A DNA stretch of 64,000 nt from a virus (Duplodnaviria > Caudoviricetes): IMG/VR virus record IMGVR_UViG_3300021400_000447, positions 17,403 to 81,402 of that record; one strand, 5' to 3'. The notes beneath the pieces are model-generated. The model was not told the DNA's origin. It searched no databases and saw nothing but the letters and a program-made list of their open reading frames with translations. Shown one piece after another: positions 1,353 to 46,638 of this stretch. A program made the translations under genes and the position numbers. Each line of letters starts with the position of its first letter. Position 1 is the first letter of the stretch.

Positions 1353-1368
1353 TAAGGAGGTGGCGTAA

Positions 1369-3306: not shown

Positions 3307-3331
3307 AAATGATGCCAAGGAGGTGTTATAT

Positions 3332-3895
3332 ATGGCTGCGAAAACCATAAATACACGCATTCAGTTGAAAAATGATACTGAGCTACATTGGAGATAGTCT
3401 GTCCTTAGAACAGACCACAGGGATGGTCTTAAAGATTCTGGCACTTCTTTTGTGCCTCTTTTGGGTGAGCTCATCATTTTTTCAAGTGATGATGCTCACC
3501 CTTTTTCTCGTTTAAAGGTCGGAGACGGAATGCAGAATGTTTTGGCATTGCCTTTTATTGACGCGGGGACAATTGATGGTGAAATCTTAGCTGACGTGAT
3601 AGTTACAGGAGCAAATAGATATTCTTTCCCTTCTATGGGATAGGAACATAAATTGTATGTTGATTTAGATAAGAATGTGATATATTGTTATAAACCTAAT
3701 ACTGGCTTTACACAATTATCTAACTTTAAATATAAACCAACAAAAACATAGATTCAAACAATAAATAGTTGGGACCCAGGAGTAATGACCACCGCGACGG
3801 TAACCAATAATAATTTAGTTATTGAGAATGGAGCCGCGCCTATACTTAAACTGGGAACATTAAATGTGGTCACAGATATAAGTGAGGTGAATTAA
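3332..3895 (+). CDS. Tail-associated protein (Mtd_N-like GE.....D....KVGDG motif)
   Basis: AAGGAGGTG RBS, ATG 3332, TAG readthrough, TAA 3893-3895. Confidence 0.7.
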
Positions 3896-3897
3896 GA

Positions 3898-5409: not shown

Positions 5410-5423
5410 GTGGGGTGAACTAA

Positions 5424-8400
5424 ATGGGTTATGTAAATAAAGTAGTAGATAATGTAGGAACTCATTTAGTAGAGCCAACATTATACACTGCTGCAGGCGG
5501 CACTGCTGCCGCGTACACTGCAGCGATCAGTACTTTTGAATTGGTAGAAGGCGTCATGATTAATTTAAAGATTCCGACTACCAATGCAGCATCTGCTACA
5601 TTAAGCATTAATAATACAACAGCGAAAAATATTTATTATAATAATGCAGCTATCGCGGAAAAAGTATTAAAAGCTAATCATATTTATAATTTAACATACG
5701 ACGGTACAAATTGGGTATTAGTTGGGGATTTAGATGCCGAAGTAAACATAACGAATACTTCATTGCCCTCATCTGGAAATAAGATTTATTATTTAACTTA
5801 TAGTGTAAGCACTACTACTGGTAATCAAAAATTAAATAACAGCGATAGACTATATTTATATGAAAATACAACAGATTCATATTTAGCTGTTGGCAGTGGC
5901 TCTACCAGTGGTGGCTTAACCATACGTAATAAAAATGGAAAATATATGAATATAGTTACATCTGCATTTAGTGACAATTAGACTTTAACATTACCAGATA
6001 AAACTGGTATTATTGCATTAACAGGTGATATACCAACTAAAGTAAGCCAATTAACTAATGATTCTGGATATGTAAAATCTTCTGGTGTTACATCCATTAC
6101 ATTAAAAGCGGGCGCCGGTATAACATTAGATACAGATAATACAGCAATTACAAATACTGGGGAACGTACCATTAGTATAAGTGGATTAAATACTTCATCT
6201 GGTTCCACTACAAAATGGCTTAATTAGAAAGGAGGATGGAGCACGCCAACAGCGGCGTAGGTTGGCGCAGCTCCTGCAGTTACTGGCGGTTATTTACCAT
6301 TAAGTGGCGGAGCAATGACGGGCAATATTCGCCGTTATTATGATGCTGCAAGTACTGAACCTATGATTACTATGCTTTCTAATAATTTGGATATCATTTT
6401 ATGGGAAGCAGGACATGGCGCTGCCGCCGCGGCAACAACTACATCTAATCATTATAAATTATTATATAAAGGGACAGGCTATACTGGAAATAATGAGAAT
6501 TATTTATAGCTAATTGCACATAAATCTGATGATAACATTGCAGTTCAAATAGATGAGGCAGGTAAAATTATTTTGCCACAGATGGCTACTGGCGCTGTAG
6601 ACACACCAATTTATATTAATAGTGATGGTGTGATTACTGCTGGCACTAAATTAGGAGCAAGCGCTTATCATGCTGACTCTTATTTTGCATTAGCGTCTCA
6701 TGGTACGCATGTTACTGCTGCAACAGTTAAATCAGCTTTAGGAACGGTTACTACAACCGCAAAAAAATTCTTAAAAGATACTGGCGCATGGGCATAGGTT
6801 AATTGGAGTGATTTGAGTGGTGTGCCAGATACGTTTACGCCTGAAACACATACGCATAATTCTGATAATACTTTAATGCATGGATATACACGTTCATAGA
6901 TTGGCACATCGCCAAATTATGATAATCCATAGTATGATGGCAAAAAAATTAATGGTATTTATGAAATACGCAAAGCTTCTGAAGTGAGCGGGCAAACTGG
7001 CACAAGACCGCCAGCCGCCGATTATTATCCAATGTTAAGCTTGCAAACAGAAAACGTAATGATGTAGCTTGGCGGTAGTAACTCATAGGGTTGGTTTATT
7101 CGTGGAAAATAGGCAGCAAATGTTACACTTGCAAATGTTGATTGGCAACAATTAATAACAGATGCAAATTATAAATCTTATGCATGGGCGCGTCCATCAT
7201 CCATTGCATCTGGTTAGATATTAGTAAGTAATGGAGCTGCAGGAGAAACTACATTACGCGGTATATATACCTTAAGTACGACTGATGACACTGGATGGAG
7301 CACAACGGCAAATAGAACTAAAATTCCAGACATGAGTTTTATGGCATATTGGAATGGCGCGTATAATGGTACTAGCAGTAATTTATCAGTTCTTGGTACA
7401 ATTACTACTGGTACTTGGAACGCTTCTGTAATTGAATCAGCTTACATAGATACAGCGATAGCACGACTTGCATCTCCAGCTTTCACAGGTACTCCGACAG
7501 CGCCCACCGCGGAAGATGGTACTAATAACACTCAAATTGCTACTACAGCTTTTGTTATGAATGCTTTTAAAACAAATGATGCAATGCTCTATAAAGGAGT
7601 AATAAATGCTGATTCTGATTTACCAACTACACATTATCAAGGATGGACTTACAAGATAGGCACGGCGGGAAAGTATGCTGGTATTTAGTGTGAAGTCGGT
7701 GATATGATTATATGTAATACCGATGGTACAACTGCGAATAATGCTCATTGGAATATCATTCAAACCAATATTGATGGAGCAGTTACAAGCTCTTCCGATA
7801 GCTCAACAGACAATGCATTGGCTGTATGGAGCGGCACTAGCGGAAGAATTATTAAAAATCAATCATATGTCACATATTTAAATCATAGTCAGATTACAGG
7901 TAAAAACTTTTATTAGGATGGTTTATTAATAAATGGTGTCACCGAAAACGGAACACCTGTATTTGGAGATGCAGGCCCATAGCTACAGTTTAATGATAGC
8001 GGTCAGCAAGGTAGCATTATATTTACTAGATTTGATAACGGATTTGCTAATTCTGCGTCATGGCATTTTGTTGCAAATCAATCATCTGGCACTAATGTTA
8101 CATCAACCGGTTTTACTGCGAAAACATATTTAACTATTGGACAAAATGCATTGGATACAGATTATAATTTATCCGTGACAGGAACAACAAAACTTAGTGG
8201 AAATGTTAATGTAATAAGTAATACTCCAAGAATATTATTTAAAGAAATGGATGCAGATAAATCAGTCGCGCCATCAAGTGCTACACAATAGGGTATATTT
8301 TTTACTGACCAAAATGGTGCAACACTTGGCCTATTGGATTAGCGTATTTATTCTGAGTCAAATCGTATGGAATATTTAGTGCTTGAACCAAATAATAACA

Positions 8401-10352
8401 CTAACGTTTACCATGGCTTGCGTCTTTACGCGCCGTTCCCTGTAAACAATACACGCACATCAGCTTACGCAGAATTTGATGCTGGGTCGTATCTCAAATT
8501 AAACAACGATACAGACGCAACAGCAGCAGATACTGGCGCATTACGTGTGTTGGGTGGCGCAAGCATATCCAAATCATTGTATGCTAAACTTGGTATATTT
8601 GACGCAATTTAGAATTATGTCATCGTAGATCGTACATCCACAACAATGACTGCTGGCGAACCATATACAGTCTTTTAGGCAAAATATAAAAACACAACTG
8701 GCGATGGTACTGCAACAATTAGTGCAATACGTGTTATTGGCACAGATGAAGCCGCAACAAGCTCTGGCGCGTTAAATAATGGATGTGTTTTAATTGGTAG
8801 CGGTACTGGTTGTGTATGGTTCTCCGCTGGTGAGAGTAGTTCTGCGTTCCCGAAAGTAGTTAGTTATAATGATGAGAACGCATATATTAGCGCAGACGCA
8901 CATATTGAATTTTATTCTAGCAATAGTACGAATGCGGCCAACTTATCTACCGATAATATAAGACATATCGCGCACTTTGACAAGACAGGCACAACTACAT
9001 TCTATAATAACATGACACTAGAAGCTGGTAGTATAACAGCAAATGCAGGTAATATTTTTTCTGGGACCGACAGCGCAAATGTGGAACGTGACGTTGGAGT
9101 TAAAACAACAGGCGGCGATTTGTATCTATACTCTACGCCAGCAGGCAATCGCGGTTTATATACTCACGCGCACGGTACTGGTGCGGCGAAAAATATTATA
9201 TCAATAGATACAAATAACAATGCTACTTTTGCTGGTCATAGTTCATTAGATATACCAATTAACTGGACAATTAGCAATGTAACACGCGGCATGGCAAATC
9301 CCTCTTCCGACCTGTGGTATGGCGGCCGCACATTAATAGATTCGTCTGGTTTAACTGGCGATTTAACAAAACGTCTATATCGCGAAGAAGCATTAATAGA
9401 AACAAATGGAAATAACAGTTATTTTTTCCGCACTTACAACAACGCCGGCACGACAGCCGAACACGTTTATTTACGTCTACTTGCAGGCCCAGCGTCTACA
9501 GGAATTAATAAACAAATAATAACAAATTCCGACTTCATAAGAGTAAATTCTGATACAGATCGTAATCTTGGTAGAGAGTTCAGAGCTACACGTGGAACTC
9601 GTTCTATTGAATTTGGATTTGGAACTGCCGGTGTTAATCGTGGTATTTATGATACAACATTAGCATAGTGGGTGTTTTATTCAGATGATTCAAATACTTA
9701 TTTAAGAACAGTATTACCTCTCGCAACAGAAACACAAGACTTAGGATCTGCGACTTACAAATGGCAAAATCTTTATACCAAAGGCATCTAGGCAGATACA
9801 ATTACAATTACAGACACAAACGCAGTTAGACACTTGAGGTTCTCACGTACAGGTTGGAACTATATTACTGCACCGAAAGGTGGCAGCCTTGCTTTTAGTG
9901 TAGGAGATTTCGCTGGCACTGGCACATGTCCACTATTAATTACTGGCACAATAAATGACAGCAATCAACTTACAGCTGGCGCACTATTTGCAGGATTGAC
10001 TAGTGTAGTTGATTTGGGTAGAAATACTAATTACTTCAAAACAGCATATATTAACACAGTTTCTGCATATGAATTATTATATTTAAATTCTGGTTCAAAT
10101 ACTAAAGCAATAGTATTCTAGCAAGGCGGTACTGAGCGTGCACGAATCAATACCAAAGGCCATCTACAAGTCAATACAAAAGTAGCACAAGATGCATTTG
10201 GTATTTTAGCTAACGATGCTATTGGTACAACTTCTCGCTATAGCTTTACATCTATACCTGTTAATGACGACGCAACAGCGCAAACAGTAAATGAGCACGC
10301 ATATATGCAATACAACACTGCTGATGATAGTATAGACTTTATTTTTAATTAA
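5424..10352 (+). CDS. Large tail fibre protein, about 1642 aa
   Basis: Eight track ORFs lie in the same frame separated only by TAG (21 counted); first TAA at 10350-10352; SPAFTGTPTAPT motif. Confidence 0.8.
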
Positions 10353-10369
10353 TACGAGGTGGTAATTAT

Positions 10370-12877
10370 ATGAGTCTAAAACTATGGTTACCACTTCGTG
10401 GTAATTTAAATAATTAGGGCATTAGTGACGCTACGGCAACCAATGGCGGCGGTGTCACTTTTGCCTCATCTGGCAATTTTGGTAGCAACGCAAGATTCCC
10501 TGGGTCATCTACAGGTTTCTTGCGGTTGCCACCACTACTACAAGCAACAGATGAGTTTACAATAGCCTTTTGGATGAAGCTAGATAGCATTACTTCCAAT
10601 GTTACATTTTATAGCCAACGCAACGCAGCGAATGCAACAGGATTTACAATATTTTATGTTTCAAGCAATACAGTTATTAGATTTGATGACGGCAGCACAT
10701 TAAATGCCACATTGCCATCCGCCGCTGCTAATAAATGGTATCATGTTGTTTGTTGCCGCGACTCAGAAAAGAAATATATTTATATTAATGGAATTCTTGC
10801 AGCTTCTGGAAATAAAGGCACGCCAAGCGCAGTAAATAGCAATTACTCTTTAATCGGCGGTTCTCAAGCGAATGCAGCAGGGTCTACACCAACAGCAAAC
10901 TATATGGCAGGATATCTTAATGATTATCGTATATATGACCATTGTATTTCCGCGGTTGAAGCGCATGAACTGTCACAAGGTTTATTATTGCATTATACAT
11001 TTGAAACAGCCAATTGCGGTCGTCCAAATTTAATTCTTAATGGTTTGCCGCATCTAAAAAATGTTACAAGCAATTGGAGTGCTTGGGTAAATAGTGGCGG
11101 CTGGCAAGCACCAATTTACTGTGAAGAGAATGGATATAGTTTTATGCGAGCAAAGTGTTTAATCAGCGGAAAGCAAGGTGGTATACACCATCCACCAGCA
11201 GATTATACTGCTTTAAAAAATGGAGTAACATATACATTATCAGCTTTTATCCGTGCTAGCGCGCCATGTCAAATTCGTTTTTATCAGGAATACATGACCA
11301 CGACTAATATAATAGACATATCCACTGAATGGAAATTTTATTCTTATAGTTGCGCATTAGATACTAGTAAAGCAAATCACTCGGACGTATTTTACTGCAT
11401 GCCAGAAACAGCAGTTGAAGGTTTAACTATTGATATCAGAATGGTCAAACTAGAAGAAGGCGATGGAGCAACTGCGTGGCGGCCGCACGTTAATGATTCA
11501 ATTGCAAGTCTGTACAATGGAGGCATCTCAAATGACGCAGGATATAAAATTCCAAATAGCATTACAGGCACTATAATTAGTGCAGGAACAAATGCAAGAG
11601 GTAAAAGTGGTATATATCTGCCGCATGATACTGCGACTACAATAGACATTTGTCTACCAAATGAAGACACAAATACCTGCGATTTTTCTAAAATACCACA
11701 AGGTACATTTAGTATGTGGATAAATAGACATAGTACGAATACTGGATGGCGGCATTATGCGTATTTTGCTAGCAATTATAACTGGACTGGAGTTACTGCT
11801 GACTTTTTAATTATTGGCTCCACTGGCGGCGCAGGGCTTACAATGGATTGTTGTAGCAATACTTTTGGTTATACTCCGAATTTAAATGAATGGAACATGT
11901 ATACAATTAGTTGGGACTTGGATGCGCATATTGCAAAGATGTATGTAAATGGGGAACTCAAAGCAACAAAAAATGATGATAAAATAAATACTACCTATGC
12001 AGCAACGTCCGCTACGTCACACTACATTGGTAATGCATGGAATGATACTAGCGCCTCACACGGTGCGCTTGGTATTCAAAGTGACTATTCTATAGATGAT
12101 GTGCGCATCTACAGCACTTGTTTACTTGACTCAGATATAAAAATGTTATATAATACTAGTATGAGAATAGACAAAAATAATAACATTCATCCATTTAATT
12201 TATTTGAAGGCGCGAAAAATGACATTGATAGACGAGGAAATCTAAATTGTAATACATTCTCAGAATATAATGGAATGTCCTTTTTAAAATATGATCCTGA
12301 TTTATATATAGAAGATGACGGTAGCTGTTGGGTTCATATTTTTCACCATTGCAATCCACATGGCGCAGCTTTTACTCAAGGTGATACATTTGATACATCA
12401 TGTTATATTGATGCAGATCGTTGGTTTAATGTAGAAGTTTGTAATTATATAGATAAATGGGAATTAATGACTAAATTTACTAAAACATATCTGGATACAG
12501 TAAGAGTATCACGATGGATACAGACAGCAAATCCATTAACTGCCACTTTTGCAGAAACAACAGCGAGTAAAATTACACGTATTCGCGCGGATGATGGAGT
12601 TAATAGTTATTGGGGCGGAATTTATAAATTAAATAATTCTAAAACTTATTTAACAACTAACGATGGGACAGATGGACACTGGTATGGCGACTATGGTTGT
12701 TTTATAACGGATTGGGCAAATGGCGGTATTCCTGGTTTTTCTAGTGGTACAAATGACTGTATTTCCACTGGCACTATTGATTTATACGTGCGCATAGATA
12801 ACGTAGATTTCAACAATGCTTCTGCAAAAACTACAAAAAATAACATGTGGATTGGAAATCAAATCATAGAGCGTTAA
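10370..12877 (+). CDS. LamG/concanavalin-A-like domain virion protein (probable receptor binding)
   Basis: MSLKLWLPL.GNLNN start; FTIAFW..., WYHVV..., YING, LNDYRIYDH LamG pattern twice; single TAG at codon 16. Confidence 0.8.
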
Positions 12878-12891
12878 AGGAGGAGAAAAGT

Positions 12892-15474
12892 ATGGCGTAG
12901 CTTAAGTGTACACTAATTTAGGGCAGTGCTAGAATTACTGACACGCTCTATGTAAATAGTATTTTGAATAAAAACTTTAATACAGATTTATTAAACGTAA
13001 GTGTTGGCACAAGCGGATCTGATGTTGATTATGGCATTAATTATGTAGATGAGAATGGTACTGTAAAAATGCACATTGGTACTGCGCCGGGTGGTGGAAG
13101 TGGAATTTATGGGACTGGCGATATTTGGCTTAGGCCAGGCTCTGGCGCAATAAATACTGCATATGGCGCGAGAATGACAACGACATCTTTTTATCCAACA
13201 GCAACAGATGCATTAACTCTTGGCACATCTTCCATGAGATGGGGAGATTTGTTTGCAAACCATGCTGATATTAAAGGAGAACTTTTGATTTCTAGTGATA
13301 CCACAACATCCGATGACATCCCGGCTAGAATTAAATTCTAGGTTAACGACACTACAACAGGAAAAACTTATGAAAGATTTGTGTTTGGCGCATATCAAGA
13401 TCATAAAGCTACCGGTTCAACTGGCTTTAATTTTATTATTAATCCTGGTGGAGCTTTAATAATGGGTGGCGGAGAAAGTGCATAGAGTTTTTATTCAGCT
13501 CGCATGAAAAACAGCGGCGAGGAAAGCGCGCATTTATTAGCAGACACTTATATTTGCATTGAATCTAATGCTCAAACAATTGGTAACTAGAACGGTATGT
13601 ATATAAATAGTGATCATACAATTGTTCCATCAGTTAATAGCACATAGGCAAATAATGTCGGTTCAATAGGTAGCAGTGCGAATAAATGGGCTAATATGTA
13701 TGCGACTACGTTTCATGGCGATAAGGGTAAATTTAAAGCGACAGACGAGGACAATCTTGTTAATATTAGCACTGGCAAAAATCCATGGCCATATATTTCT
13801 TTTGGTTCGCTTGAAAACTCAAGTTCAACTTCATATAGTTTTGGCTCTGATGAAAAATGGGGACAAGTATATTGTCAAATTAGGGCGTCAAATAAAGCAG
13901 GAACAACATATTATGCGCCACGATTTTTCTTTAGGGTTTATAGTCCAGTAGCTAATTCACTTAGTCACGCTCAAACAACAGGCAACGATCCAAGTCCAAC
14001 CTATGAGACATATCAATTACCTGTCGTTACCACTGGTTTAACCAGTAATAAAACATATCAAATTTTAAATACAAAAGAATTATCTCCGATTACTGATATG
14101 ATATTCAGCTATGGTGGCGACACATCTAAAATTCCCGCATTAGACAATGGAACCGATCTTAATACACTAGGCATAGGTATTACACGAATAATTAATAGTA
14201 CTGCCGCAAAAACAATGTCAAACACACCAAATGGAACTAATATTAGTTGCGGAGGCACAGTATACACAATTGGTGGATACAACAATACAACAAGCCAATT
14301 TGGTATGCAAATTTACCGTGGTAGTAATCCGCAAAAAACATGGGTACGTTATGAAGGCAGCACGCATGGCACATATGGAGGATGGTATAAATTCCCTTAT
14401 ATCGCGCCAGCAGAAAGTTCGATTGGCGGTAGTACAACTAGCGTTTATGTTAATGGTTCTGGGCAATTAGTACAAGGTAGTGCATTTGTCCCAAAAACTG
14501 GCGGTGCGTTTACTGGGGATATTTCTACGAGTGGAAAATTAACCGTTGGAACAAATTTATATACCGGGCCAGATGGATCACATGGACTCAATATGAACAA
14601 CAGCGATCTTGTGAATGTTAATGGCATTTTCACAAAGGATCTCGCTGATACTTTTGGCGAAGGATATATGTTTAAACGTTCTAATAATAATTGGGATGGT
14701 TTTGCTGCTCATGATGGAATTTTCTATTTTGGCGCTAATTTGGGTGCATATAACAGCGGTTTAGGCGGAACAGCCACATTAAATGCTTATAATTTTATTC
14801 GTGATGGTATTAATACAAATTGGATACAAGGTCGTGATGCAGCCCTTTTAAAAATGTAGAGTAAAACTACTGCTGATCACTATAATGCGTGTATTAGTAT
14901 GGTCGGAACAACATATTCATGGGAAGAAGGATTATACACAAATGATACATTATGTTGGACAGCATGCCCAACATCTAACTATTCAACTAATACCAACAGT
15001 GGATATAAGCAAATGAAGCTCACGACAGACGGCGTTTTAGAGGCTATACAAGTTAAAAACGCAGTCTGGAATGACTACGCAGAATACCGTAAAACCAACC
15101 CAGACGTAAAATATGGCCAAACAGTAATCGATAACGATGATGGCTCACTATCCATCGCAAATGCACGCTTACTCCCTGGCGCACAAGTAGTATCCGACAC
15201 TTGGGGTCACATCATGGGCGAAACTGATGATGCAAAGACTCCAGTTGCAGTTGCTGGACGAGTTCTAGCCTATCCATATCGTGATAGAAATGAATATCAC
15301 GCAGGTCAAGCAGTTTGCACAGCACCAAATGGTACAATAGACATCATGACACGAGAAGAAATTCGTGACTATCCAGATTGTATTGTTGGAATAGTAAGCG
15401 AAATCCCATCATATGAAACATGGGGCAGCAACAATATTAATGTTGATGGACGCATTTGGATAAAAATAAAATAA
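12892..15474 (+). CDS. Tail fibre protein with C-terminal WNDYAE...GRV...GRIW.K chaperone-like domain
   Basis: AAAGGAGG RBS; MA(TAG)LK start; ORFs 12964, 13696 and 14899 in frame; ends TAA. Confidence 0.75.
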
Positions 15475-15558
15475 TTTAAATGATTCTTATTGAATAAATC
15501 TCACATAAATATAGAATAGATAGTATATCCAACTATCTAAATAAAAGAGGTGTTTTTT

Positions 15559-15879
15559 ATGGCTCAAATAATTTTTAATGGACTTTCTTCTAAGCCATTT
15601 ACTCTAAATTCTTACAATCGTACGACAACACTCGATGGCGCAAACAACATCTCCAGTACTGCTTATATGCAAATTATTCCAGATGGCAGCACTATTGCAA
15701 CATTAACCTCCCTAATGACACAGGGAATTAACCACATTCTAATTAAGAATGATGCTGGTGAAACTATTTATGTACTAGGCGATCTTGCTGGTAAAATCAC
15801 TTCCATGCAAGAAGCATTTAATGGCGGCGAACGTGTAGAGGTTTATCTAAACTTAACAACAAACGCCGCAGAACAATAA
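15559..15879 (+). CDS. Hypothetical protein
   Basis: GAGGTG RBS; clean ORF; followed by a terminator. Confidence 0.65.
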   Translation: MAQIIFNGLSSKPFTLNSYNRTTTLDGANNISSTAYMQIIPDGSTIATLTSLMTQGINHILIKNDAGETIYVLGDLAGKITSMQEAFNGGERVEVYLNLTTNAAEQ

Positions 15880-15880
15880 T

Positions 15881-15903
15881 AGGAGGGGCAACCCTCCTTT
15901 TTA
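15881..15903 (+). terminator. Intrinsic terminator
   Basis: AGGAGGG-GCAA-CCCTCCT followed by TTTT. Confidence 0.75.
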
Positions 15904-15927
15904 ATTACCTAAAAGGAAGTGATTGAT

Positions 15928-16185
15928 ATGAATATAATGAGTCGTCGCGGCCAACTAGATAATGTGGTCACATACGAGCACATTTGCGACACACGGGCGG
16001 ATATGGCTAATATTGATCCGCAATACATTACTTTAGGTACAATTTGTTTGGTTTTAAAGGGTGAAGTCGGTCTTGAAGTCTATATGGCTGGTAGTGATAA
16101 ACAATGGGTAGACATTCTTACAGCCTTTAATTCCCAAGAAGAAGAAACAACTCCTGATGAGGGCGATAACGGTGGTGAAGGATAA
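15928..16185 (+). CDS. Hypothetical tail-module protein
   Basis: AAAGGAAG RBS; acidic C-terminus; TAA overlaps the next ATG. Confidence 0.65.
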   Translation: MNIMSRRGQLDNVVTYEHICDTRADMANIDPQYITLGTICLVLKGEVGLEVYMAGSDKQWVDILTAFNSQEEETTPDEGDNGGEG

Positions 16186-18191
16186 TGGCGATTGATATAA
16201 TTGATGTTATATTAGGACGCGCATTGTCTTCAACCGGCCAGATAGATACATATGCTGCAAAGGCAGCCAAAGCAGCGAAGGACGCTACTGCTGCGGCAAC
16301 AAACGCGCAAACAGCAGTAACTAATATAACAACTATAACTGAAGAAACACAAGCAAATAATGAACTTGCGCAGCAAACTGTAACACAAGTACAGACTGCA
16401 TTGCAGGATTTGCAAAACGCAATTGATTCTATGGAATCTCCACAGATAGACATAGCCGCGGTTCAAGAAGAGATAAAGAAAATTTATTTCTACGAATTAA
16501 CGCACAATTATGGCACATCCGCGACCGGCACAGATTATTTTATTGTCTATCCAGATGGAGAAGAAGATGGACTTTTTTCTACAAAATTATACAAACAAAC
16601 AGGCCAGAATACCGATGCACCAATGACGCAAAAGGCAGTAACAGACGCAATATCTTCTGAAATTAATGTTGCAATTACTAACCTTTCTAACACAATTAAT
16701 CAGCGTATCAATAATCTTGTTATTGAAGGCGGTACTGGTTCTATTAATCTTGGTATGGATAATGAAGGCCATTTGATTATTGTAGGCCCAGATGGACAGC
16801 CAATTGCGGCATCCTCCACAGAAGAAGAATTGATAGAGGCTTTAGTAAAGTCTGGTTCTTATCACTTGAAAGGTAGTGTAGGCGTAGAGAATGACTATGA
16901 AAATAAAGTTACCCTTCGTTCACAGGATGCGCTAACCGATGGTTCATTAACTGAAGTCTTTGATGCGCTACCAATGTTTGGAGGCAGAAAGCGTTGCAAT
17001 GTAGATGATAACGGACAAATTACTGCCTTTTATGGTGACGCAAATTACGCTGAAGATGGCAGTAATGGTTAGGTTATGGTATATCAACCTAAATTCTACT
17101 ATTCTCGCGTTATTATTAAGTCTACATCTTCTACAAATGGTACAGCTATTCGTAAGGAAGCATTAATCTTAACACCCACAAAGCAAGGGCCAAATTTCAA
17201 AATCCATCCGCTATTTATAAATGAAGATGGAGAAGAAGTAGAATATGTGCTACTTGCCGCATATGATGGCTGTGTATATGATGCTTCTGACTCCGCTTAT
17301 GCAACAACATCTGCGCTTACTATTGATTATGCCAACGATAAACTTTCTTCTATTGCCGGCGCAAAACCAATTACAGGCGTTTATGGTAGCGGGTTAACCA
17401 TGACAAACGCAGAACAGCTCGCGCGCAATCGTGGCGCTGGATGGCACATCACCAATCTTGCGGCAGAAAGTGCACAATAGATGCTTATGATGACAGAATT
17501 TGGCTCACCTAACGGACAATTCTCATTAGAGCGCGGCATTGTTGACATCACAAGCGTAAGCGGGAAAAACTGTACATCCTTAACTGGCTCTACCAATATC
17601 CTTGGAAATGCAACTGGTGCAGCAGAAGTAACAACAAATGAGGCGGGTGGTAATGTACAAGATTACACTGTTGATGGTAAGCGCGCGATTAGCTATCGTG
17701 GAGTAGAAAATCCATGGGGTAACATTTGGCGTTATGTTGGAGGAACATTTATTTCCGGTCATGGCGCATCTAATGGCGGCCATCCATATGTATGTAAGAA
17801 TTTTAACTATAATTTTAGTGAAGATTCTGAAGATTTTGATCAGCTTCCATTTGTCCTTCCAGCCGCACATACATGGATTTATGCGCTAGCAGATTGCGGA
17901 GCAGATTATGACTGGGTTTATATGCCGATTGAGTGCTCTAGCAACCTTGCCAACAGTGCGTTACCTTTTGGTGACAATCTATGGACTTCACCAAGTCTAA
18001 ATGGCGTAAATTCTTGCTTGGCTGGCGGTAGTTGGGGCAGCGCAGAAAATGCTGGTATGTTCTACTATGGATGCGATATGGGTATTAATGAATCTGGTAA
18101 TTCAAGTGGTGCAAAGTTAATGTTCATTCCTCACAAAGATTCTATTTATCAAGCAAATTATACTAAATGGCAAGCATTAGCAGGAGGTTGA
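16185..18191 (+). CDS. Tail protein with C-terminal C-type-lectin (Mtd/FGE-like) fold
   Basis: ORFs 16185, 17076 and 17481 join through 2 TAG; YRGVENPWGNIW and GGSW...AG.F...G.KL motifs; ends TGA. Confidence 0.7.
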
Positions 18192-19945: not shown

Positions 19946-19958
19946 AAATATAGACAGT

Positions 19959-20044
19959 GGGGAGGTACCCAAGTGGCCGAAGGGAGCGACCTACTAAGTC
20001 GCCAGCGCCTCACGGCGGCGTGGGTTCGAATCCCACCCTCCCCG
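19959..20044 (+). tRNA. tRNA-Ser, unusual anticodon ACT
   Basis: Acceptor GGGGAGG/CCTCCCC; anticodon arm GCGAC-CT ACT AA-GTCGC; long variable arm; G73. Confidence 0.85.
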
Positions 20045-20066
20045 TTGAAAAGAAAGGAGCCATACT

Positions 20067-20732
20067 ATGGAGAAGTACCATAAAATTGAGACGATGTTTG
20101 AGCGCGATACCGAAGGTAAGCATCAGCTTCGTTACGGCGTGTTTCGTGATGAGACTGTTGAATATCTTTCTCACATGGATTGGGAATGGACTGAGAAGGT
20201 CGATGGTACGAACGTTCGTGTACATTGGGACGGCTATCATGTTGAATTTGGTGGCCGCACCGATAATGCACAGATGCCAGTCTTTCTTATGGAAAAGCTA
20301 ACGCAAATTTTCAAGACGCCCGCGGCTGAAGAGATGTTTGAGCAGCTTTTTGGAGAAAAAGATGTTATTCTCTTTGGCGAAGGATATGGTAATAGAATCC
20401 AGAAGGTTGGCTCTTGTTATATTCCTGATGGTGTTGGTTTTATCCTGTTCGATGTGATGATTGGCGGAAACTATCAGCCTCGTGATAGTGTTGTAAAGAT
20501 CGCAGAAGCGTTCTCTATTTCTGTTGTGCCGATTGTTGGGCGTGGAACTCTGTTCGATGCTCTTCGATATGTCGCAACGCATCCTACTTCCATTGTCGCG
20601 CAGAAGGAATGCGGAATGGAAGGCGTTGTTTGCCGACCAATGATTGAGCTTCGTGACCGTTGTGGTAAGCGTGTGATTGTTAAAATTAAGTGGAATGATG
20701 TAAAGGAGCTAATTGAAAGTGATCAGATTTAA
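20067..20732 (+). CDS. RNA ligase (Rnl2-like nucleotidyltransferase)
   Basis: Motif I TEKVDGTN, then LFGEGYG, FILFDV, EGVV, VKIK. Confidence 0.85.
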   Translation: MEKYHKIETMFERDTEGKHQLRYGVFRDETVEYLSHMDWEWTEKVDGTNVRVHWDGYHVEFGGRTDNAQMPVFLMEKLTQIFKTPAAEEMFEQLFGEKDVILFGEGYGNRIQKVGSCYIPDGVGFILFDVMIGGNYQPRDSVVKIAEAFSISVVPIVGRGTLFDALRYVATHPTSIVAQKECGMEGVVCRPMIELRDRCGKRVIVKIKWNDVKELIESDQI

Positions 20733-21800: not shown

Positions 21801-21877
21801 CGGAACTTAACTCAGTTGGTTAGAGTGGCGGTCTTATAAACCGCAAGTCCTGGGTTCAAGTCCCAGAGTTCCGACCA
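21801..21877 (+). tRNA. tRNA-Ile, anticodon TAT (reads AUA)
   Basis: CGGAACT/AGTTCCG acceptor; GCGGT-CT TAT AA-ACCGC; encoded CCA. Confidence 0.9.
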
Positions 21878-22308: not shown

Positions 22309-22434
22309 ATGCCGGATGATTTCGTAACGAATGATTCATATGACGCATATGATGCTGATTATGAAGAAGAAGAACAGACTTGGGACGAGTATTGCCGAGA
22401 ACTGGCGCGGGAAAGCGATGATTTGACAGATTAA
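22309..22434 (+). CDS. Very acidic 41-aa protein
   Basis: AAGGAG RBS just after promoter 22246; MPDDFVTNDSYDAYDADYEEEEQTWDEYCRELARESDDLTD. Confidence 0.55.
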   Translation: MPDDFVTNDSYDAYDADYEEEEQTWDEYCRELARESDDLTD

Positions 22435-22451
22435 AAAAATTATGATATAAT
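22423..22451 (+). promoter_or_regulatory. Sigma-A promoter driving the leader and suppressor tRNA
   Basis: TTGACA-17 nt-TATAAT. Confidence 0.8.
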
Positions 22452-22457
22452 TTATTA

Positions 22458-22712
22458 TGGGCTTGGGATAACTTTGGACACAGCTTATCCTGCCTAAAAT
22501 TAACAGGTGTTACAGAGCCACCTTTAAAGCCCTGGCTTCTGGGCGCAATCCCAAAAATCTACGACCGTTAACACGGATTTAGCACTTCAACTACCACCGG
22601 CACGAAATCCGCCGCGAAAGCGAACGAGTATGCTTGGTTTAACAAGCGGGCGGCTCAGTAGTGATATGTGGCTTAGCGGAAAACGGTATATAAAGAAGCG
22701 AAGTAAAGTGCA
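22458..22712 (+). ncRNA. Structured leader/ncRNA upstream of the suppressor tRNA
   Basis: Hairpins GGATAA/TTATCC, CGGATTT/AAATCCG, GCCC/GGGC; no ORF. Confidence 0.4.
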
Positions 22713-22717
22713 ATTGT

Positions 22718-22982
22718 AGCCCCTTAGTTCAACGGTAGAACACCGGTCTCTAGTCTTAATTTGGAGCTTCATATGGGGACATATGAATGAAAACGCCGCT
22801 AATTCGGAGAAAGCTTAACTGCCAACCCCGAGCAAGGAGAAATCCGTGTGTAGAGACTTTACACGGCGCATCTAGAACAGATGAAGATAAAGTCCGGACC
22901 ACAATGCAAAAGCAATGCGTGTGAAGAAAACCGTTATATCCCTCTGAAGGAGGTAGTCTGGGTTCGAATCCCAGAGGGGCCA
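22718..22982 (+). tRNA. Amber suppressor tRNA (anticodon CTA) interrupted by a group I intron; exons 22718-22751 and 22927-22982
   Basis: Joined exons give AGCCCCT-TA-GTTC AACGGTA GAAC-A-CCGGT CT CT|A AA ACCGT-23 nt arm-CTGGG TTCGAAT CCCAG-AGGGGCC-A. Mismatches at 1:72 and 27:43. Confidence 0.85.
22752..22926 (+). mobile_element. Compact group I intron (IC-type core, 175 nt, no ORF)
   Basis: P1 CTCT|AG/TTGGAG with U.G at the splice site; P2 TTCATATG-GGGA-CATATGAA; P3 CGCCG/CGGCG; AATTCGGAGAAA..CAACCCCGAGC (P4-P6); AGAGACT and AAGATAAAGTC (P7); P8 CATCT/AGATG; terminal G. Confidence 0.85.
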
Positions 22983-23035
22983 CAATATTGACTTTTCTTA
23001 CAAAATATACTATAATATATTTGTAAGAAAAATTT

Positions 23036-23704: not shown

Positions 23705-24060
23705 ACCCAAGTAAAACGGGAATTGACTCGTTATAACCAGCCAATTTTAATTGGCGGCCTGATGAACGTTCGACTCGTTCGTTGCTTAAGTCGGTCTGAG
23801 GGCGGAACTGGCATCCGCCGCCTAAATGGAGATACAGGATTGTCACCCTGTCTACTTAAGCAAGTAGTTTAATGGCTAAAACCGTAGGCGACGTGGCGCG
23901 GACACTGGTTTGGGTGAGGTTTCTGCTATGACCAAAAAGACATAAAATATAGCAGCAATGTGTGCTTATGACGGTATTGTTACGTTGCGGAGCAATACTT
24001 GAGGCTTCATAGCAGTTAGCGTTAATCTGTGCGCAACAGTTAAAAAACGCATTTTGTGTT
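23705..24060 (+). ncRNA. Candidate structured non-coding RNA of about 350 nt
   Basis: TTGCTTAAGT 23782-23791 pairs with ACTTAAGCAA 23854-23863, enclosing hairpins GGCGGA/TCCGCC and ACAGG/CCTGT. Confidence 0.45.
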
Positions 24061-30510: not shown

Positions 30511-30592
30511 GCCCGAGTGGCGGAATGGCAGACGCGCTTGACTCAAAATCAAGTTCACAAGAGTGTGGGTTCAAGTCCCACCTTGGGCACCA
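30511..30592 (+). tRNA. tRNA-Leu(CAA)
   Basis: GCCCGAG/CTTGGGC; CTTGA-CT CAA AA-TCAAG; CCA. Confidence 0.92.
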
Positions 30593-30595
30593 TAT

Positions 30596-30668
30596 GCTCC
30601 ATTAGCCCAATGGCAGAGGCGATGCGCTTAGAACGCATACAGTGAGAGTTCGAATCCCATCGAGAGTG
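30596..30668 (+). pseudogene. Degenerate tRNA-Leu(TAG)
   Basis: Good D and anticodon arms (ATGCG-CT TAG AA-CGCAT); T stem and 3' acceptor strand do not pair. Confidence 0.55.
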
Positions 30669-30694
30669 CTGTAAAAATATTGAAGGGAAAAGAA

Positions 30695-31171
30695 ATGCCG
30701 ACTTTATATATCATTTGCGGCCCTAGTGGTAGCGGGAAATCTACTTGGGCAAAGAACTACATGATTGAACATGATGAACAAGATATTCGTTATGTTTCGC
30801 GCGATGAAATTCGTTATTCAATCGTTCATGATGATGAACCTTATTTTTCTCATGAACGTGAAGTTTTTCGCAAGTTTGTATCTACCATTGTAAACACGCT
30901 AATTGACGGATTTGACGTTATTGCTGATGCAACGCATCTTAATAGTGCTTCCCGCGCGAAGCTAACAAATGCAATCGATGCACGCTATTCTGATTATGAT
31001 ATTATTTACGTAGTATTTAATGTTCATATTTCTGAGTGTATTCGGCGTAATGGTCTGCGAGAAGGACGAATGTGTGTGCCTGATGGTGTTATCGATCGGC
31101 AATTCCATGATTTTTACGCTCCTACGCTTGAAGAAGATGTACGAGCGACTCGCATAATTTACGTATATTAA
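30695..31171 (+). CDS. P-loop kinase, polynucleotide-kinase-like (AAA_33)
   Basis: LYIICGPSGSGKSTWAK, SRDEIR, DATHLN...R, R.R.VP..VI..Q. Confidence 0.8.
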   Translation: MPTLYIICGPSGSGKSTWAKNYMIEHDEQDIRYVSRDEIRYSIVHDDEPYFSHEREVFRKFVSTIVNTLIDGFDVIADATHLNSASRAKLTNAIDARYSDYDIIYVVFNVHISECIRRNGLREGRMCVPDGVIDRQFHDFYAPTLEEDVRATRIIYVY

Positions 31172-31765: not shown

Positions 31766-32361
31766 AGGAGCATTTTCCTTAATAAATGATTGACCCAAGT
31801 GCAGATGTGCCAACCACACTGCTTGGGCTATCTGAATAACAGCCATACGTTACGGCCCGGGATACTAGGCACACGCGGCCGCCGAAACAGCAATGCTAGG
31901 CGATAGGAAGAAACTTCTAATGTTAAGGATAGGCGCTTAAATATTCGCAATCAAAAGTATTATTCCTCTTGGCCACATAATAGAAAGCTCATTGAATAGG
32001 TGAGCCGAATCCAGATAAGGTGGTAGCTGGTAACTGCTGCAAACTCTGGAATTACCATAAGTGGCTAATGTCGATGAAAGCCAGAAATGGCATATAAAAG
32101 AGGTTTAAAGTAAAAGTAGGCCAATACGACATTAATTGTATGTTAACACATAAGCAAGTATGCTTAATATGATTATTGCTGAATGGTTTGGCTGAAATTT
32201 CAGGGTAAGCAATCCCTGCTATACATGGCTGTAAAGCGGGTTAAGAAAGTTACGGGGTAGCTCCTTGTGGCTCAGCTCTTAATTCTATAGTGACTGAATA
32301 TGATTGAAGAATATTATAAGTATGGCGAAGGCTGCAATCATTTGTTAAGGAAAATGCTCCT
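31766..32361 (+). ncRNA. Large (~596 nt) ornate non-coding RNA, ROOL/GOLLD-class candidate
   Basis: 27-bp terminal helix 31766-31792 with 32335-32361 (one G.U); many internal stems; own promoter; no ORF. Confidence 0.75.
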
Positions 32362-33999: not shown

Positions 34000-34563
34000 A
34001 TGAATAAAATCTTTTTTACAAGCGATACACATTTTTGTCATGATAAAGATTTTGTATGGCAGAAACGTGGTTTTTCTAGTGTTCAGGATATGAATGCAGC
34101 ACTAGTGTGCAGATGGAACGAAGTTGTTGATGAAGACGACACAGTTTTTCATCTTGGCGATTTAGCACTTGGCGACGTTGAAGAAGCTATGACGTACATT
34201 CGCCAGTTAAAAGGACAAATAATTTGGATCGGCGGTAATCATGATACAGAAAATAAAATTCAAAGGATTACACGGCATAATCTAAATATTAATTTTGTAG
34301 GTTATGCGTATATTATGAAATATCATAAACTTCATTTTTATCTTTCTCACTATCCTACCATCACAGCCAACTTTGATGATAAATATTTTTCGCAGCACGT
34401 AATTAACCTTCACGGACATACGCATCAAGTAGATCACTTTATGACTGTTGAAAACCCTTTTATGTATAACGTTGGTGTTGATGCTTGCAATAATACGCCG
34501 ATTGAAATTGACAAGGTAATTGATGATATATCTTGTAGATGGAGGGCGTTGCAAGAGGAATAA
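34000..34563 (+). CDS. Calcineurin-like metallophosphoesterase
   Basis: FTSDTHFCH, HLGD, GNHD, HGHTH, NVGVD. Confidence 0.85.
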   Translation: MNKIFFTSDTHFCHDKDFVWQKRGFSSVQDMNAALVCRWNEVVDEDDTVFHLGDLALGDVEEAMTYIRQLKGQIIWIGGNHDTENKIQRITRHNLNINFVGYAYIMKYHKLHFYLSHYPTITANFDDKYFSQHVINLHGHTHQVDHFMTVENPFMYNVGVDACNNTPIEIDKVIDDISCRWRALQEE

Positions 34564-38219: not shown

Positions 38220-38636
38220 ATGAAGATTTTTTTGAGTTTACTTTTTACTATTATGCTTTTATTTAATTTTTCTGCCGCGGAAGCGCCGTCTCCAGATGCA
38301 GAAACACTTGTGCGGTTTATCCCAGATTTATACTTTACATCAATTTATGCGCTTGAAGATGATCCATGGGTGTTAATTAATGAGTTTTCTGAAGAAGATA
38401 GCACCATGTTTGTTGTTGATGAAGCGCTTGAAGTGCAATTGGATGAAGAGCTAGATGAAGTTACAATGTTTTGTACTAGATATTACAATGCCGAAGATAG
38501 CATCTTTGTAATCTGGCACAATGATAGTAATACTATTATTATATCTCCTGATGTAATTGATGGTTGTTTACTATTGGACATGCATGAAATTTAGCCAAGC
38601 GTATATCGTGTTTATGTAATGTTTATGGAGCCGTGA
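38220..38636 (+). CDS. Hypothetical exported acidic protein
   Basis: Signal-peptide-like N-terminus; 3' end ambiguous (TAG 38592 or TGA 38634). Confidence 0.5.
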
Positions 38637-38649
38637 GGCTCTTTTTTTT
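38628..38649 (+). terminator. Intrinsic terminator
   Basis: GAGCC-GTGA-GGCTC followed by a T run. Confidence 0.75.
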
Positions 38650-38680
38650 ATTGTATCAATAGGTATTGGAGGCTATTTTA

Positions 38681-46512: not shown

Positions 46513-46638
46513 TACTTGACTTTTTAATATGTATATAGTATAATATAATAGAGGGAGCAAAGGAGTAATTAACCTTTGAGATAATGCTACTTACTTAGCA
46601 AGCTCTATTTAATAATTGCTTAGTAAGGAGTGATTTAT

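What the first reader, a model, noticed from the sequence alone, without database searches (positions are those of the whole stretch)
22718..22982. Amber-suppressor tRNA whose CUA anticodon is split by a group I intron
Seen in sequence: a tRNA 5' half (22718-22751) ends in ...CCGGT-CT-CT. A 175-nt insert with every group I core element follows, then a 3' half beginning A-AA-ACCGT. The U.G pair in P1 and the terminal G fix both splice sites, and ligation gives anticodon CUA with the intron between positions 35 and 36. No other CUA tRNA is present in this window, yet dozens of genes need TAG readthrough. Established: group I splicing needs a guanosine cofactor and Mg2+; tRNA introns are known in cyanobacterial Leu/fMet and proteobacterial Ile/Arg tRNAs. 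Inference: the unspliced RNA cannot decode UAG, so splicing could act as the switch that enables the recoded tail, virion and some replication genes. A consensus sigma-A promoter (22423) suggests early transcription, so any timing control would be post-transcriptional. Standard tRNA scanners may miss this gene.
Basis: partly seen in the sequence, partly recalled or inferred. Interest (0 to 1): 0.95.

Follow-up and report, generated by a model that had tools for sequence, protein, structure and literature searches.

The report
Intron-split amber suppressor tRNA in phage
A phage that reads the stop codon TAG as glutamine has its only TAG-reading tRNA gene cut in two, inside the anticodon, by a very small self-splicing-type (group I) intron that hides it from tRNA finders. 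Sister phages carry the identical tRNA without the intron, so it looks like a mobile passenger and not a purpose-built code switch.

Summary
Window 22718-22751 and 22927-22982 are the two halves of a tRNA with anticodon CUA. The 175 nt between them (22752-22926) is a group I intron lying between anticodon positions 35 and 36. Default ARAGORN and the Rfam tRNA model miss the gene; ARAGORN with introns allowed finds it. Rfam Intron_gpI scores 32.4 bits, below its threshold, but covariation in P1-P6, P8 and P9 across relatives is strong. Intronless alleles in other phage contigs are identical to the predicted ligated exons, which fixes the junction. It is the only CUA tRNA in the 81-kb contig and in two near-complete relatives. 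TAG is a sense codon (188 in-frame TAG) that aligns with Gln.

The switch reading is not supported. About 57 IMG/VR contigs carry this tRNA family without the intron and only 7 carry it with. Intron presence is scattered over at least five allele types. The same intron family sits in ordinary phage Lys, Tyr and Ser tRNAs. It is homologous to classical bacterial tRNA-Leu IC3 introns. Splicing itself is untested.

This scan has found the same arrangement before on other phage genomes. I rate it a new member of a known kind, of moderate interest.

The parts
22423..22451 (+). Sigma-70/sigma-A-type promoter-like site, TTGACA-17 nt-TATAAT with TG extension, about 265 nt upstream of the tRNA
   Evidence: 12 of 12 consensus matches. 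Four more 11/12 sites lie in the tRNA island (19917, 20932, 22246, 22988). These are consensus matches only; function was not tested.
22718..22751 (+). 5' exon of tRNA(CUA): acceptor 5' strand (A1 opposite C72), D arm, anticodon stem 5' strand, and loop C32 U33 C34 U35
   Evidence: It is 100% identical to the intronless alleles L061 and L094. Cloverleaf covariation on 34 intronless alleles.
22752..22926 (+). Group I intron, 175 nt, no ORF, ending in omega G22926
   Evidence: It is a clean indel relative to the intronless alleles.
22748..22766 (+). P1: exon CUCU 22748-22751 pairs with the internal guide GGAG 22763-22766. U22751.G22763 marks the 5' splice site
   Evidence: U.G in 17/19, and the -2 pair covaries with the host anticodon (CG 7, UA 5, GC 3, UG 3, AU 1). 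U.G in 11/11.
22768..22787 (+). P2 hairpin, 8 bp, with GNRA tetraloop L2 (GGGA, 22776-22779)
   Evidence: every pair covaries. L2 is GGGA, GAAA, GUAA or GAGA in the relatives.
22794..22868 (+). P3 (22794-22798 with 22864-22868), which encloses P4 (22803-22807/22828-22832), P5 (22813-22814/22821-22822), P6 (22836-22838/22843-22845) and the P7 5' strand (22855-22861)
   Evidence: P3 is 100% paired, with CG/GC/UA at all 5 pairs. P3, P4, P5 and P6 are recovered independently by MAFFT plus RNAalifold.
22855..22894 (+). P7 pseudoknot (GACUUUA 22855-22861 with UAAAGUC 22888-22894), which encloses the P3 3' strand, P8 (22869-22873/22879-22883) and J8/7 (AAGA)
   Evidence: 7 bp are complementary in the sequence and invariant in relatives, so there is no covariation. 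The segment matches the Rfam consensus AGACUAAA...AGAUAUAGUC. P8 covaries.
22900..22919 (+). P9 hairpin. Loop L9 is AAAA (22908-22911) in this window but GAAA in all 7 relatives
   Evidence: P9 pairs covary (GC, AU, CG, UA). The window-specific G-to-A change at the first loop base is seen in alignment A1.
22927..22982 (+). 3' exon: A36 A37 A38, anticodon stem 3' strand, extra arm, T arm, acceptor 3' strand, discriminator A22982. No CCA is encoded
22939..22951 (+). Extra ('variable') arm: a 3-bp stem (UCC/GGA) closing the 7-nt loop CUCUGAA, which copies a tRNA-Gln(CUG) anticodon loop
   Evidence: the loop is invariant except for one A-to-C change in 2 alleles. The stem covaries (UCC/GGA, CAC/GUG, UGC/GCA, GCC/GGC, ACC/GGU) and is 100% paired in the cells counted.

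Best explanation
This is a functional phage gene for an amber-reading tRNA that inserts glutamine at UAG. A small, ORF-less group I intron of the tRNA anticodon-loop (IC3-like) family interrupts it between anticodon nucleotides U35 and A36.

Inferred mechanism:
1. The gene is transcribed, possibly from the consensus promoter at 22423.
2. The intron folds into P1-P9.
3. An external guanosine attacks after U22751, which is held in P1 by a U.G pair with G22763.
4. Omega G22926 then enters the G site and the exons are joined. This gives the loop CUCUAAA.
5. The host end-processes the tRNA, adds CCA and charges it with Gln.

Because no other CUA tRNA is present, all TAG-containing genes depend on this splicing step. 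The intron itself is most likely a tolerated mobile or optional passenger that splices constitutively, not a timing device.

Shown here: gene anatomy, junction, fold covariation, sole-copy status, TAG = Gln, and intron presence/absence polymorphism. Inferred only: self-splicing activity, its speed, charging with Gln, and the promoter actually used.
For: Anatomy and junction. Intronless alleles L061 and L094 are identical to the ligated exons, with blastn breaks at 22752/22927.

Intron fold:
- On 19 intron-tRNAs, 92.2% of cells are paired against 65.7% in shuffles. 54 of 61 pairs show double changes. The covariation score is 0.616 against 0.156 in shuffles (0/500) and 0.06-0.12 in slid controls.
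- An independent MAFFT plus RNAalifold run recovers P1-P6, P8 and P9.

Homology: model R1 hits bacterial tRNA-Leu(UAA) CUU/a...g/AAAA introns at 68-79 bits.

tRNA reality: the cloverleaf is 90.3% paired against 72.7% in shuffles (0/500) on 34 alleles.

Sole CUA tRNA: in the contig and in relatives that are 100% and 98% complete.

TAG = Gln:
- PhoH residue 251 aligns with Q in 105/120 homologues.
- Q is the commonest partner of TAG in both directions in cross-phage tblastn, 12/31 and 16/26.

Passenger status:
- 57 intronless loci against 7 intron-bearing loci plus this window.
- Intron-bearing alleles fall in at least 5 exon types, 4 of which have intronless twins or near-twins.
- Intron identity is 83-90% regardless of exon identity of 67-100%.
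- The same family occurs in Lys(UUU), Tyr(GUA) and Ser(UGA) phage tRNAs, with at least 4 such tRNAs in one 10-kb contig.
- Sister tRNA introns carry endonuclease ORFs.
Against:
- Rfam Intron_gpI is below its gathering score, 32.4 against 50.
- P7 is invariant, so covariation says nothing about it.
- This window's allele has three unusual features: L9 is AAAA instead of the GAAA tetraloop of all relatives, the discriminator is A instead of G, and no CCA is encoded. It could therefore splice or charge less well than its relatives.
- The contig has no terminal repeat and may be incomplete, since relatives are 100-180 kb. A second CUA tRNA in a missing part cannot be excluded.
- The intron has no endonuclease gene, so how it moves is unknown.
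- The flat intron identity could partly reflect stronger constraint on the ribozyme rather than transfer.
- 'Passenger' does not exclude a secondary regulatory effect.
Confidence: 0.75

Rival explanations
1. Splicing-gated code switch. The suppressor is transcribed early but is made decoding-competent only when the ribozyme splices. Splicing rate, set by folding, guanosine or Mg2+ levels or a phage or host factor, would then time translation of the TAG-rich virion and other genes.
For: - It is the sole CUA tRNA in the contig and in two near-complete relatives.
- TAG is concentrated in the structural genes 55-18191 and in several others, while many genes have none.
- A consensus promoter lies upstream.
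- This allele's L9 is AAAA rather than GAAA, which could slow folding.
- Borges et al. (bioRxiv 10.1101/2021.08.26.457843) propose that recoding regulates late genes.
Against: - Identical or near-identical tRNA alleles lack the intron in most related TAG-recoded phages. The recoding strategy therefore works without it.
- The same intron family sits in sense tRNAs, where no switch is at stake.
- No conserved extra domain or ligand-binding element is present: at 173-177 nt the intron is a minimal core.
Confidence: 0.1
2. Protective role. The intron is kept because it disrupts the DNA target of a homing or other nuclease aimed at the anticodon region of this tRNA gene. Alternatively, the precursor escapes host anticodon nucleases or tRNA-targeting defences until it is spliced.
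For: - The window's tRNA island holds an RNA ligase (20067-20732), a P-loop kinase (30563-31171) and a metallophosphoesterase (34000-34563). This suggests tRNA damage is a pressure.
- A free-standing GIY-YIG/NUMOD1 endonuclease gene lies at 46630-47451, and endonuclease ORFs sit in sister tRNA introns.
- Intron insertion is known to protect homing sites (general knowledge of intron homing; review PMC3984707).
Against: - No nuclease specific for this site is identified.
- Most alleles do without the intron.
- The mature tRNA would be as exposed as any other tRNA after splicing.
Confidence: 0.07
3. Decaying or inactive copy. This particular allele no longer splices or charges well, and TAG is read by another tRNA in an unsequenced part of the genome or by the host.
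For: - Three features are unique or unusual to the window allele: L9 is AAAA rather than GAAA, the discriminator is A73, and GCCA has become ACAA so that no CCA is encoded.
- The contig has no terminal repeat, and relatives are 100-180 kb.
Against: - Both exons are 100% identical to the intronless alleles up to position 72.
- All helices are intact.
- A73 and a missing encoded CCA also occur in other alleles of the family.
- 188 in-frame TAG codons need a reader.
- In two near-complete relatives the intron-bearing gene is the only CUA tRNA.
Confidence: 0.06

Closest known systems
Group I introns in bacterial and plastid tRNA anticodon loops, subgroup IC3: tRNA-Leu(UAA) 'Leu.3Ug', fMet.2Ug, Arg.5Ug, Ile2.5Ug (Azoarcus, 205 nt). 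Sources: Williams 2020, bioRxiv 10.1101/2020.01.27.920355; PMC3984707; PMC3895272
   Same: - A self-splicing-type ribozyme core P1-P9, with U.G at the 5' splice site and an omega G.
- It sits in the anticodon loop and has no ORF.
- L2 (and, in the relatives, L9) are GNRA tetraloops.
- Direct homology: model R1 hits alphaproteobacterial tRNA-Leu(UAA) introns at 68-79 bits. These share the strings AAUUCGGUGAA, CCCCGAGC, GUGUAGAGACUUUAC and GAAGAUAAAGUCC.
   Different: - The host is a phage, not a bacterium or plastid.
- The host gene is a stop-codon suppressor.
- The insertion is between positions 35 and 36 ('site 4'), not at the four classical sites.
- It is smaller, at 173-177 nt against 205 nt for Azoarcus and about 230-250 nt for Leu introns.
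- In this window L9 is not a GNRA loop.
Introns in Lak megaphage tRNAs ('enigmatic introns', Devoto et al. 2019, PMC6784885)
   Same: - Phage-encoded tRNAs in TAG-recoded phages that contain conserved introns.
- Some alleles have the intron and some do not.
- They were found only by non-default tRNA prediction.
   Different: Those introns were reported in Tyr(GTA), Thr(TGT) and other tRNAs. In the text I read they were left unclassified: they were tested against Rfam but not called group I, and none was reported in the CUA suppressor. I did not compare their sequences.
Intronless tRNA-Sup(CTA) of code-15 phages, e.g. the second Sup-CTA of phage phAss-1 (OQ749652, PMC10607447)
   Same: - The same tRNA family: identical anticodon arm and the same extra arm with loop CUCUGAA.
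- 93.9% identity over the 3' exon.
- TAG is read as Gln.
   Different: - phAss-1 has no intron.
- It has A1-U72 rather than A1.C72.
- It carries additional CUA tRNAs, including a class I one next door. This contig has only the split gene.
E. coli su+7 (tRNA-Trp with anticodon CUA, charged with Gln). Recalled from my own knowledge: Yaniv, Folk, Berg and Soll 1974
   Same: A CUA anticodon on a body with A1, a weak 1-72 pair and the loop CUCUAAA (tRNA-Trp has CUCCAAA). It is read as Gln.
   Different: - The resemblance to phage tRNA-Trp genes is not discriminating by simple identity: 72% at best, against 79% for Arg(UCU).
- The phage tRNA has an extra Gln-anticodon-like arm and an intron.

Membership tests
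Group I intron (Rfam RF00028) | P1 helix with a U.G wobble pair at the 5' splice site, formed with an internal guide sequence | tested here: met
   U22751.G22763. The U.G is kept in 17/19 and 11/11. The neighbouring pair covaries with the host tRNA's anticodon.
Group I intron (Rfam RF00028) | Conserved core helices P3, P4, P6 and P8 supported by covariation | tested here: met
   P3 and P8 are 100% paired with double changes, P4 is 91.6% paired and P6 is 97.6% paired. One search recovers them without my structure as input.
Group I intron (Rfam RF00028) | P7 pseudoknot holding the guanosine-binding site, plus J8/7 | tested here: inconclusive
   GACUUUA and UAAAGUC are 7 bp complementary and match the Rfam consensus strings. 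They are invariant in all relatives, so there is no covariation. G binding was not tested.
Group I intron (Rfam RF00028) | Terminal guanosine (omega G) before the 3' splice site | tested here: met
   G22926. All 8 CUA alleles end ...AG before AAAACCG. The intronless alleles fix the junction.
Group I intron (Rfam RF00028) | Score at or above Rfam's gathering threshold | tested here: not met
   32.4 bits against 50, so there is no hit at gathering. Williams 2020 used 18-20 bits for tRNA introns, because none of the Rfam seed sequences was bacterial.
Group I intron (Rfam RF00028) | Self-splicing with guanosine and Mg2+ | not testable with these tools
IC3 tRNA anticodon-loop introns | Sequence homology to the classical tRNA-Leu(UAA) intron | tested here: met
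   R1 scores 69.9 and 68.1 bits on the Rhodospirillales and Reyranella tRNA-Leu CUU/a...g/AAAA genes, and 79 and 75 bits on two other bacterial Leu genes. Part of each score comes from the tRNA exons.
IC3 tRNA anticodon-loop introns | Peripheral GNRA tetraloops L2 and L9 (as in Azoarcus; recalled from knowledge) | tested here: inconclusive
   L2 is GGGA, which is GNRA. L9 is AAAA in the window but GAAA in all 7 relatives. Receptors were not identified.
IC3 tRNA anticodon-loop introns | Insertion at one of the four classical sites (Leu 34/35, fMet, Arg and Ile2 36/37) | tested here: not met
   The site is 35/36, CUCU/a...g/AAA. The Tyr and Lys members of the phage subfamily use the same site. 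Table 1 of Williams 2020, which lists the 17 newer classes, is an image and could not be read.
Amber suppressor tRNA reading UAG as Gln (code 15 phages) | Cloverleaf with anticodon CUA, conserved and covarying | tested here: met
Amber suppressor tRNA reading UAG as Gln (code 15 phages) | In-frame TAG codons that align with Gln in homologues | tested here: met
Amber suppressor tRNA reading UAG as Gln (code 15 phages) | Aminoacylation with Gln | not testable with these tools
   Only indirect signs: a weak or mismatched 1-72 pair in 31 of 34 alleles, G73 in most alleles (A73 here), G10, and an extra CUG loop.
tRNA-Pyl (ARAGORN's label) | Pyl-type body: very short variable loop, small D loop, long anticodon stem (recalled from knowledge) | tested here: not met
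   The variable region is 23 nt with a hairpin, the anticodon stem is 5 bp (4 of them Watson-Crick) and the D loop is ordinary at 7 nt. ARAGORN's label follows from the anticodon alone.
Class II tRNA (Ser/Leu/Tyr) | A long variable arm together with the matching amino acid at the codon it reads | tested here: not met
   A long arm is present, but TAG aligns with Q, not S, L or Y. The arm's loop is a conserved CUCUGAA.

The most novel reading that the evidence does not exclude
The phage's alternative genetic code is gated by a ribozyme. In this lineage the suppressor is the only UAG reader and becomes usable only after self-splicing. Splicing efficiency may be tuned by the weakened L9 loop, guanosine or Mg2+ levels, or a phage factor. 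It would then set when the TAG-rich virion genes can be translated.
Probability: 0.08. Interest if true: 0.85.

Novelty: new member of a known kind. Interest (0 to 1): 0.5.

Why it matters
Practical point. Recoded phages are often reported as lacking a suppressor tRNA (stated in PMC10607447). Default tRNA finders and Rfam thresholds miss this gene. Intron-split suppressors may therefore account for some of those cases, and annotation pipelines should allow group I introns in phage tRNAs.

Biological points:
- A 2014 review stated that all known phage group I introns were in protein genes (PMC3984707). Here a small ORF-less family sits in several phage tRNAs (Sup, Lys, Tyr, Ser), sometimes four to a contig.
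- At 173-177 nt these are smaller than the 205-nt Azoarcus ribozyme. They could be useful minimal ribozymes.
- A whole alternative code hangs on one RNA-catalysed step. This is directly testable with natural intron-plus and intron-minus alleles.

Tried and rejected
- Rfam at gathering found no intron.
- blastn of the locus against INPHARED phages found only the 3' exon in phAss-1 and weak tRNA-Ser matches, and no intron homologue.
- The 16-base pattern CGGTCTCTA..TTGGAGC gave 61 IMG/VR loci. ARAGORN called an intron-split CUA tRNA only in contigs already known, so the rest are probably chance matches.
- The P7 pattern in genome contigs is generic across many phyla and says nothing about the host.
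- MFE folding of the intron alone is not distinctive (z = -1.58) and prefers a local hairpin over P7. Single-sequence folding is uninformative here.
- The idea that the tRNA body is specifically tRNA-Trp-derived is not discriminated by simple identity to phage tRNAs.
- An Rfam search of the 250-nt leader found nothing.
- I considered and rejected tRNA-Pyl and Ser/Leu/Tyr identity.
- Literature searches found no paper describing a group I intron in a phage suppressor tRNA. Subscription journals are not covered.

Full report
**1. What is in the sequence**

Window 22718-22982 (+ strand) reads as a tRNA whose two halves are separated by 175 nt.
- The 5' half, 22718-22751, ends in the anticodon stem CCGGU followed by C-U-C-U.
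- The 3' half starts at 22927 with A-A-A and ACCGU. It continues through a 23-nt extra region, a normal T arm and the acceptor 3' strand, and ends at discriminator A22982.
- Default ARAGORN finds 13 other tRNAs in the window but not this one. The Rfam tRNA model at gathering also misses it.
- With introns allowed, ARAGORN calls a 91-nt tRNA with anticodon CUA and a 175-nt intron at exactly this junction. The same call results whether the precursor or the in-silico spliced sequence is given. Its 'tRNA-Pyl' label only reflects the anticodon.

**2. The insert is a group I intron**

*Rfam.* RF00028 aligns 22740-22912 over its whole length at 32.4 bits, E 1.5e-6 in a 501-nt search. This is below the curated 50-bit threshold, so it is absent at gathering.

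*Core elements read from the sequence:*

| Element | Coordinates |
|---|---|
| P1 | 22748-22751 with 22763-22766; U22751.G22763 at the splice site |
| P2 | 22768-22775 / 22780-22787, with GNRA loop GGGA |
| P3 | 22794-22798 / 22864-22868 |
| P4 | 22803-22807 / 22828-22832 |
| P5 | 22813-22814 / 22821-22822 |
| P6 | 22836-22838 / 22843-22845 |
| P7 | 22855-22861 / 22888-22894 |
| P8 | 22869-22873 / 22879-22883 |
| P9 | 22900-22907 / 22912-22919 |
| omega G | 22926 |

*Covariation, fitted alignment.* Pattern searches of IMG/VR and a covariance model of my own (R1) gave seven further CUA-tRNA genes with 173-177-nt introns at the same place. They also gave the same intron family in other phage tRNAs. 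On 19 such sequences:
- 92.2% of cells pair, against 65.7% in shuffles.
- 54 of 61 pairs show changes on both sides.
- The covariation score is 0.616, against 0.156 in shuffles (0 of 500 reach it) and 0.06-0.12 when partners are slid.
- P3 is 100% paired with three pair types at every position.
- The U.G at the splice site is kept in 17 of 19. The pair next to it changes with the host tRNA's anticodon.

*Covariation, independent alignment.* That alignment was fitted to my structure, so I repeated the test with plain MAFFT plus RNAalifold on 11 introns from four host tRNAs. It recovered P1 (U.G in 11/11), P2, P3, P4, P5, P6, P8 and P9 on its own. P7 is invariant, so covariation neither supports nor opposes it. 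Its two strands match the Rfam consensus strings.

**3. The splice junction is fixed by intronless alleles**

- A pattern for the uninterrupted anticodon arm plus the extra arm found 57 IMG/VR loci.
- After splicing in silico, the window's tRNA is identical to the uninterrupted genes in L061 and L094, except for the discriminator and the following bases.
- L019's spliced tRNA equals the intronless L045.
- blastn of six intronless loci against this genome breaks at 22752 and resumes at 22927. Exon identity is 100% for L061 and L094, although the flanks are barely alignable.
- An A stands on both sides, so comparison alone allows 35/36 or 36/37. The U(-1)/omega-G rule selects 35/36.

**4. TAG is a sense codon, read as Gln**

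- Treating TAG as sense raises the DNA in frames of at least 400 codons from 8.8 to 35 kb. Doing the same for TGA has no such effect.
- About 40 of the 72 ORFs listed carry in-frame TAG. Examples are 21 in 5424-10352, 18 in 38633-41182 and 4 in PhoH.
- In PhoH, the TAG at residue 251 aligns with Q in 105 of 120 homologues. The three other TAGs fall in N/Q, D/E/Q/N and H/N columns.
- In tblastn against related loci, Q is the commonest residue opposite the window's TAG (12 of 31; next best 3). It is also the commonest opposite the relatives' in-frame stops (16 of 26).
- Ser, Leu and Tyr, which a long extra arm might suggest, are not supported.

**5. Is it the only amber reader?**

- ARAGORN with introns finds one CUA tRNA in the whole 81,402-bp contig.
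- The contig has no terminal repeat and may be incomplete.
- I therefore checked relatives. In G002 (179 kb, CheckV 100%) and G003 (177 kb, 98%), all Rfam tRNA hits lie in one island each. Those islands hold no uninterrupted CUA tRNA.

**6. Switch or passenger?**

- Intronless alleles of this tRNA family outnumber intron-bearing ones about 57 to 8. Several intronless loci also show the TAG-sense signature.
- Intron-bearing alleles fall into at least five exon sequence types. Four of these have an intronless twin or near-twin.
- Intron identity between alleles is flat at 83-90%, while exon identity ranges from 67 to 100%. This fits movement or exchange of the intron between alleles better than strict co-descent. 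Stronger constraint on the ribozyme could contribute.
- The same family interrupts Lys(UUU), Tyr(GUA) and Ser(UGA) tRNAs in other phages. One 10-kb contig (L013) has at least four split tRNAs.
- Larger sister introns in phage tRNAs carry endonuclease ORFs: PD-(D/E)XK at 74.6 bits and a weak HNH. This window has a free-standing GIY-YIG/NUMOD1 gene at 46630-47451.
- Model R1 also hits classical bacterial tRNA-Leu(UAA) introns (CUU/a...g/AAAA) at 68-79 bits. The element therefore belongs to the well-known IC3-type tRNA intron lineage.

Together these points favour a tolerated mobile or optional element. I could not obtain RNA reads, so neither splicing nor its timing was observed.

**7. Peculiarities of this allele**

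- L9 is AAAA here but the GNRA loop GAAA in all seven relatives.
- The discriminator is A, where most alleles have G.
- No CCA is encoded.
- Position 1 is an A opposite C72. Across 34 intronless alleles the 1-72 position is U-A (12), A-U (8), mismatched (10), G.U (1) or C-G (3).
- A weak first pair and G73 are features of Gln identity in E. coli. This is my own knowledge and was not tested here.

**8. The extra arm**

- The extra arm, 22939-22951, is a 3-bp stem closing the loop CUCUGAA.
- The loop is invariant apart from one base in two alleles.
- The stem covaries: UCC/GGA, CAC/GUG, UGC/GCA, GCC/GGC and ACC/GGU.
- The loop copies a tRNA-Gln(CUG) anticodon loop. It may help host enzymes charge a stop-codon reader with Gln, but this is inference.
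- It is not part of the finding I was given, and other notes of this scan describe it.

**9. Literature**

[quoted passage not shown] Williams extended them from 4 to 21 classes (bioRxiv 10.1101/2020.01.27.920355).
- A 2014 review states that all phage group I introns then known were in protein genes, despite the many phage tRNA genes (PMC3984707).
- Devoto et al. 2019 reported 'enigmatic' unclassified introns in Lak phage tRNAs (PMC6784885).
- The phAss-1 paper and the Borges preprint do not mention introns in suppressor tRNAs.
- I found no paper describing this arrangement, but subscription journals are not searched.
- This scan has reported the same arrangement repeatedly on other phage genomes, with the same 'passenger' verdict.

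**10. Verdict**

The element is a new member (phage host, suppressor tRNA, site 35/36, 175 nt) of a known kind. Interest is moderate. The value lies mainly in annotating recoded phages, in a very small natural ribozyme family, and in a cleanly testable dependence of an alternative code on RNA catalysis.

Noticed in passing
window 22939-22951; also L002:3005-3025 and the alleles in A4: The tRNA's extra arm is a covarying 3-bp stem with an almost invariant 7-nt loop CUCUGAA. This copies a tRNA-Gln(CUG) anticodon loop on a CUA suppressor. It is conserved in about 40 distinct alleles.
   Followed up: partly
window 22908-22911, 22982-22985: This allele alone has L9 = AAAA instead of the GAAA tetraloop. 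It also has A73 instead of G73 and ACAA instead of GCCA after the acceptor stem.
   Followed up: partly
L022:936-1233 and L035:11888-12185: A phage tRNA-Leu(UAA) appears to carry a group I intron in the D-arm region while its anticodon arm is intact. This is not a classical insertion site.
   Followed up: no
L013:1134-1418, 2443-2720, 3811-4092, 5493-5766: At least four tRNA genes in one 10-kb phage contig are each split by a member of the same small intron family.
   Followed up: partly
L007:9246-10057; L027:653-1390 and 2423-3167: Phage tRNA genes with larger introns. A 726-nt intron in tRNA-Leu(UAA) holds a weak HNH-like ORF. Two 663-nt introns hold a PD-(D/E)XK endonuclease ORF (74.6 bits).
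   Followed up: partly
window 31771-32353 and 23791-23858: A full-length ROOL RNA (311.8 bits) and a skipping-rope RNA (38.1 bits, just over threshold) lie in or next to the tRNA island.
   Followed up: no
window 22458-22712: The roughly 250-nt stretch between the consensus promoter and the tRNA has no Rfam match. Parts of it recur at 73-89% identity in L094 and L050 at places not adjacent to the CUA tRNA, so it may be an independent element.
   Followed up: partly
window 20067-20732, 30563-31171, 34000-34563: An RNA ligase (Pfam RNA_ligase), a P-loop kinase (AAA_33/Zeta_toxin-like) and a metallophosphoesterase are dispersed in the tRNA island. This is a possible tRNA repair set.
   Followed up: no
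window 19958-20045, 21801-21877, 30595-30669: ARAGORN calls a tRNA-Ser with the unusual anticodon ACU, a tRNA-Ile(UAU), and a 75-nt tRNA-Leu(UAG), which is short for a Leu tRNA.
   Followed up: no
window 50722-52032 and 57454-59820: TAG-free genes for a xanthine/uracil-type permease and a gyrase/topoisomerase IV A subunit are encoded by the phage contig.
   Followed up: no
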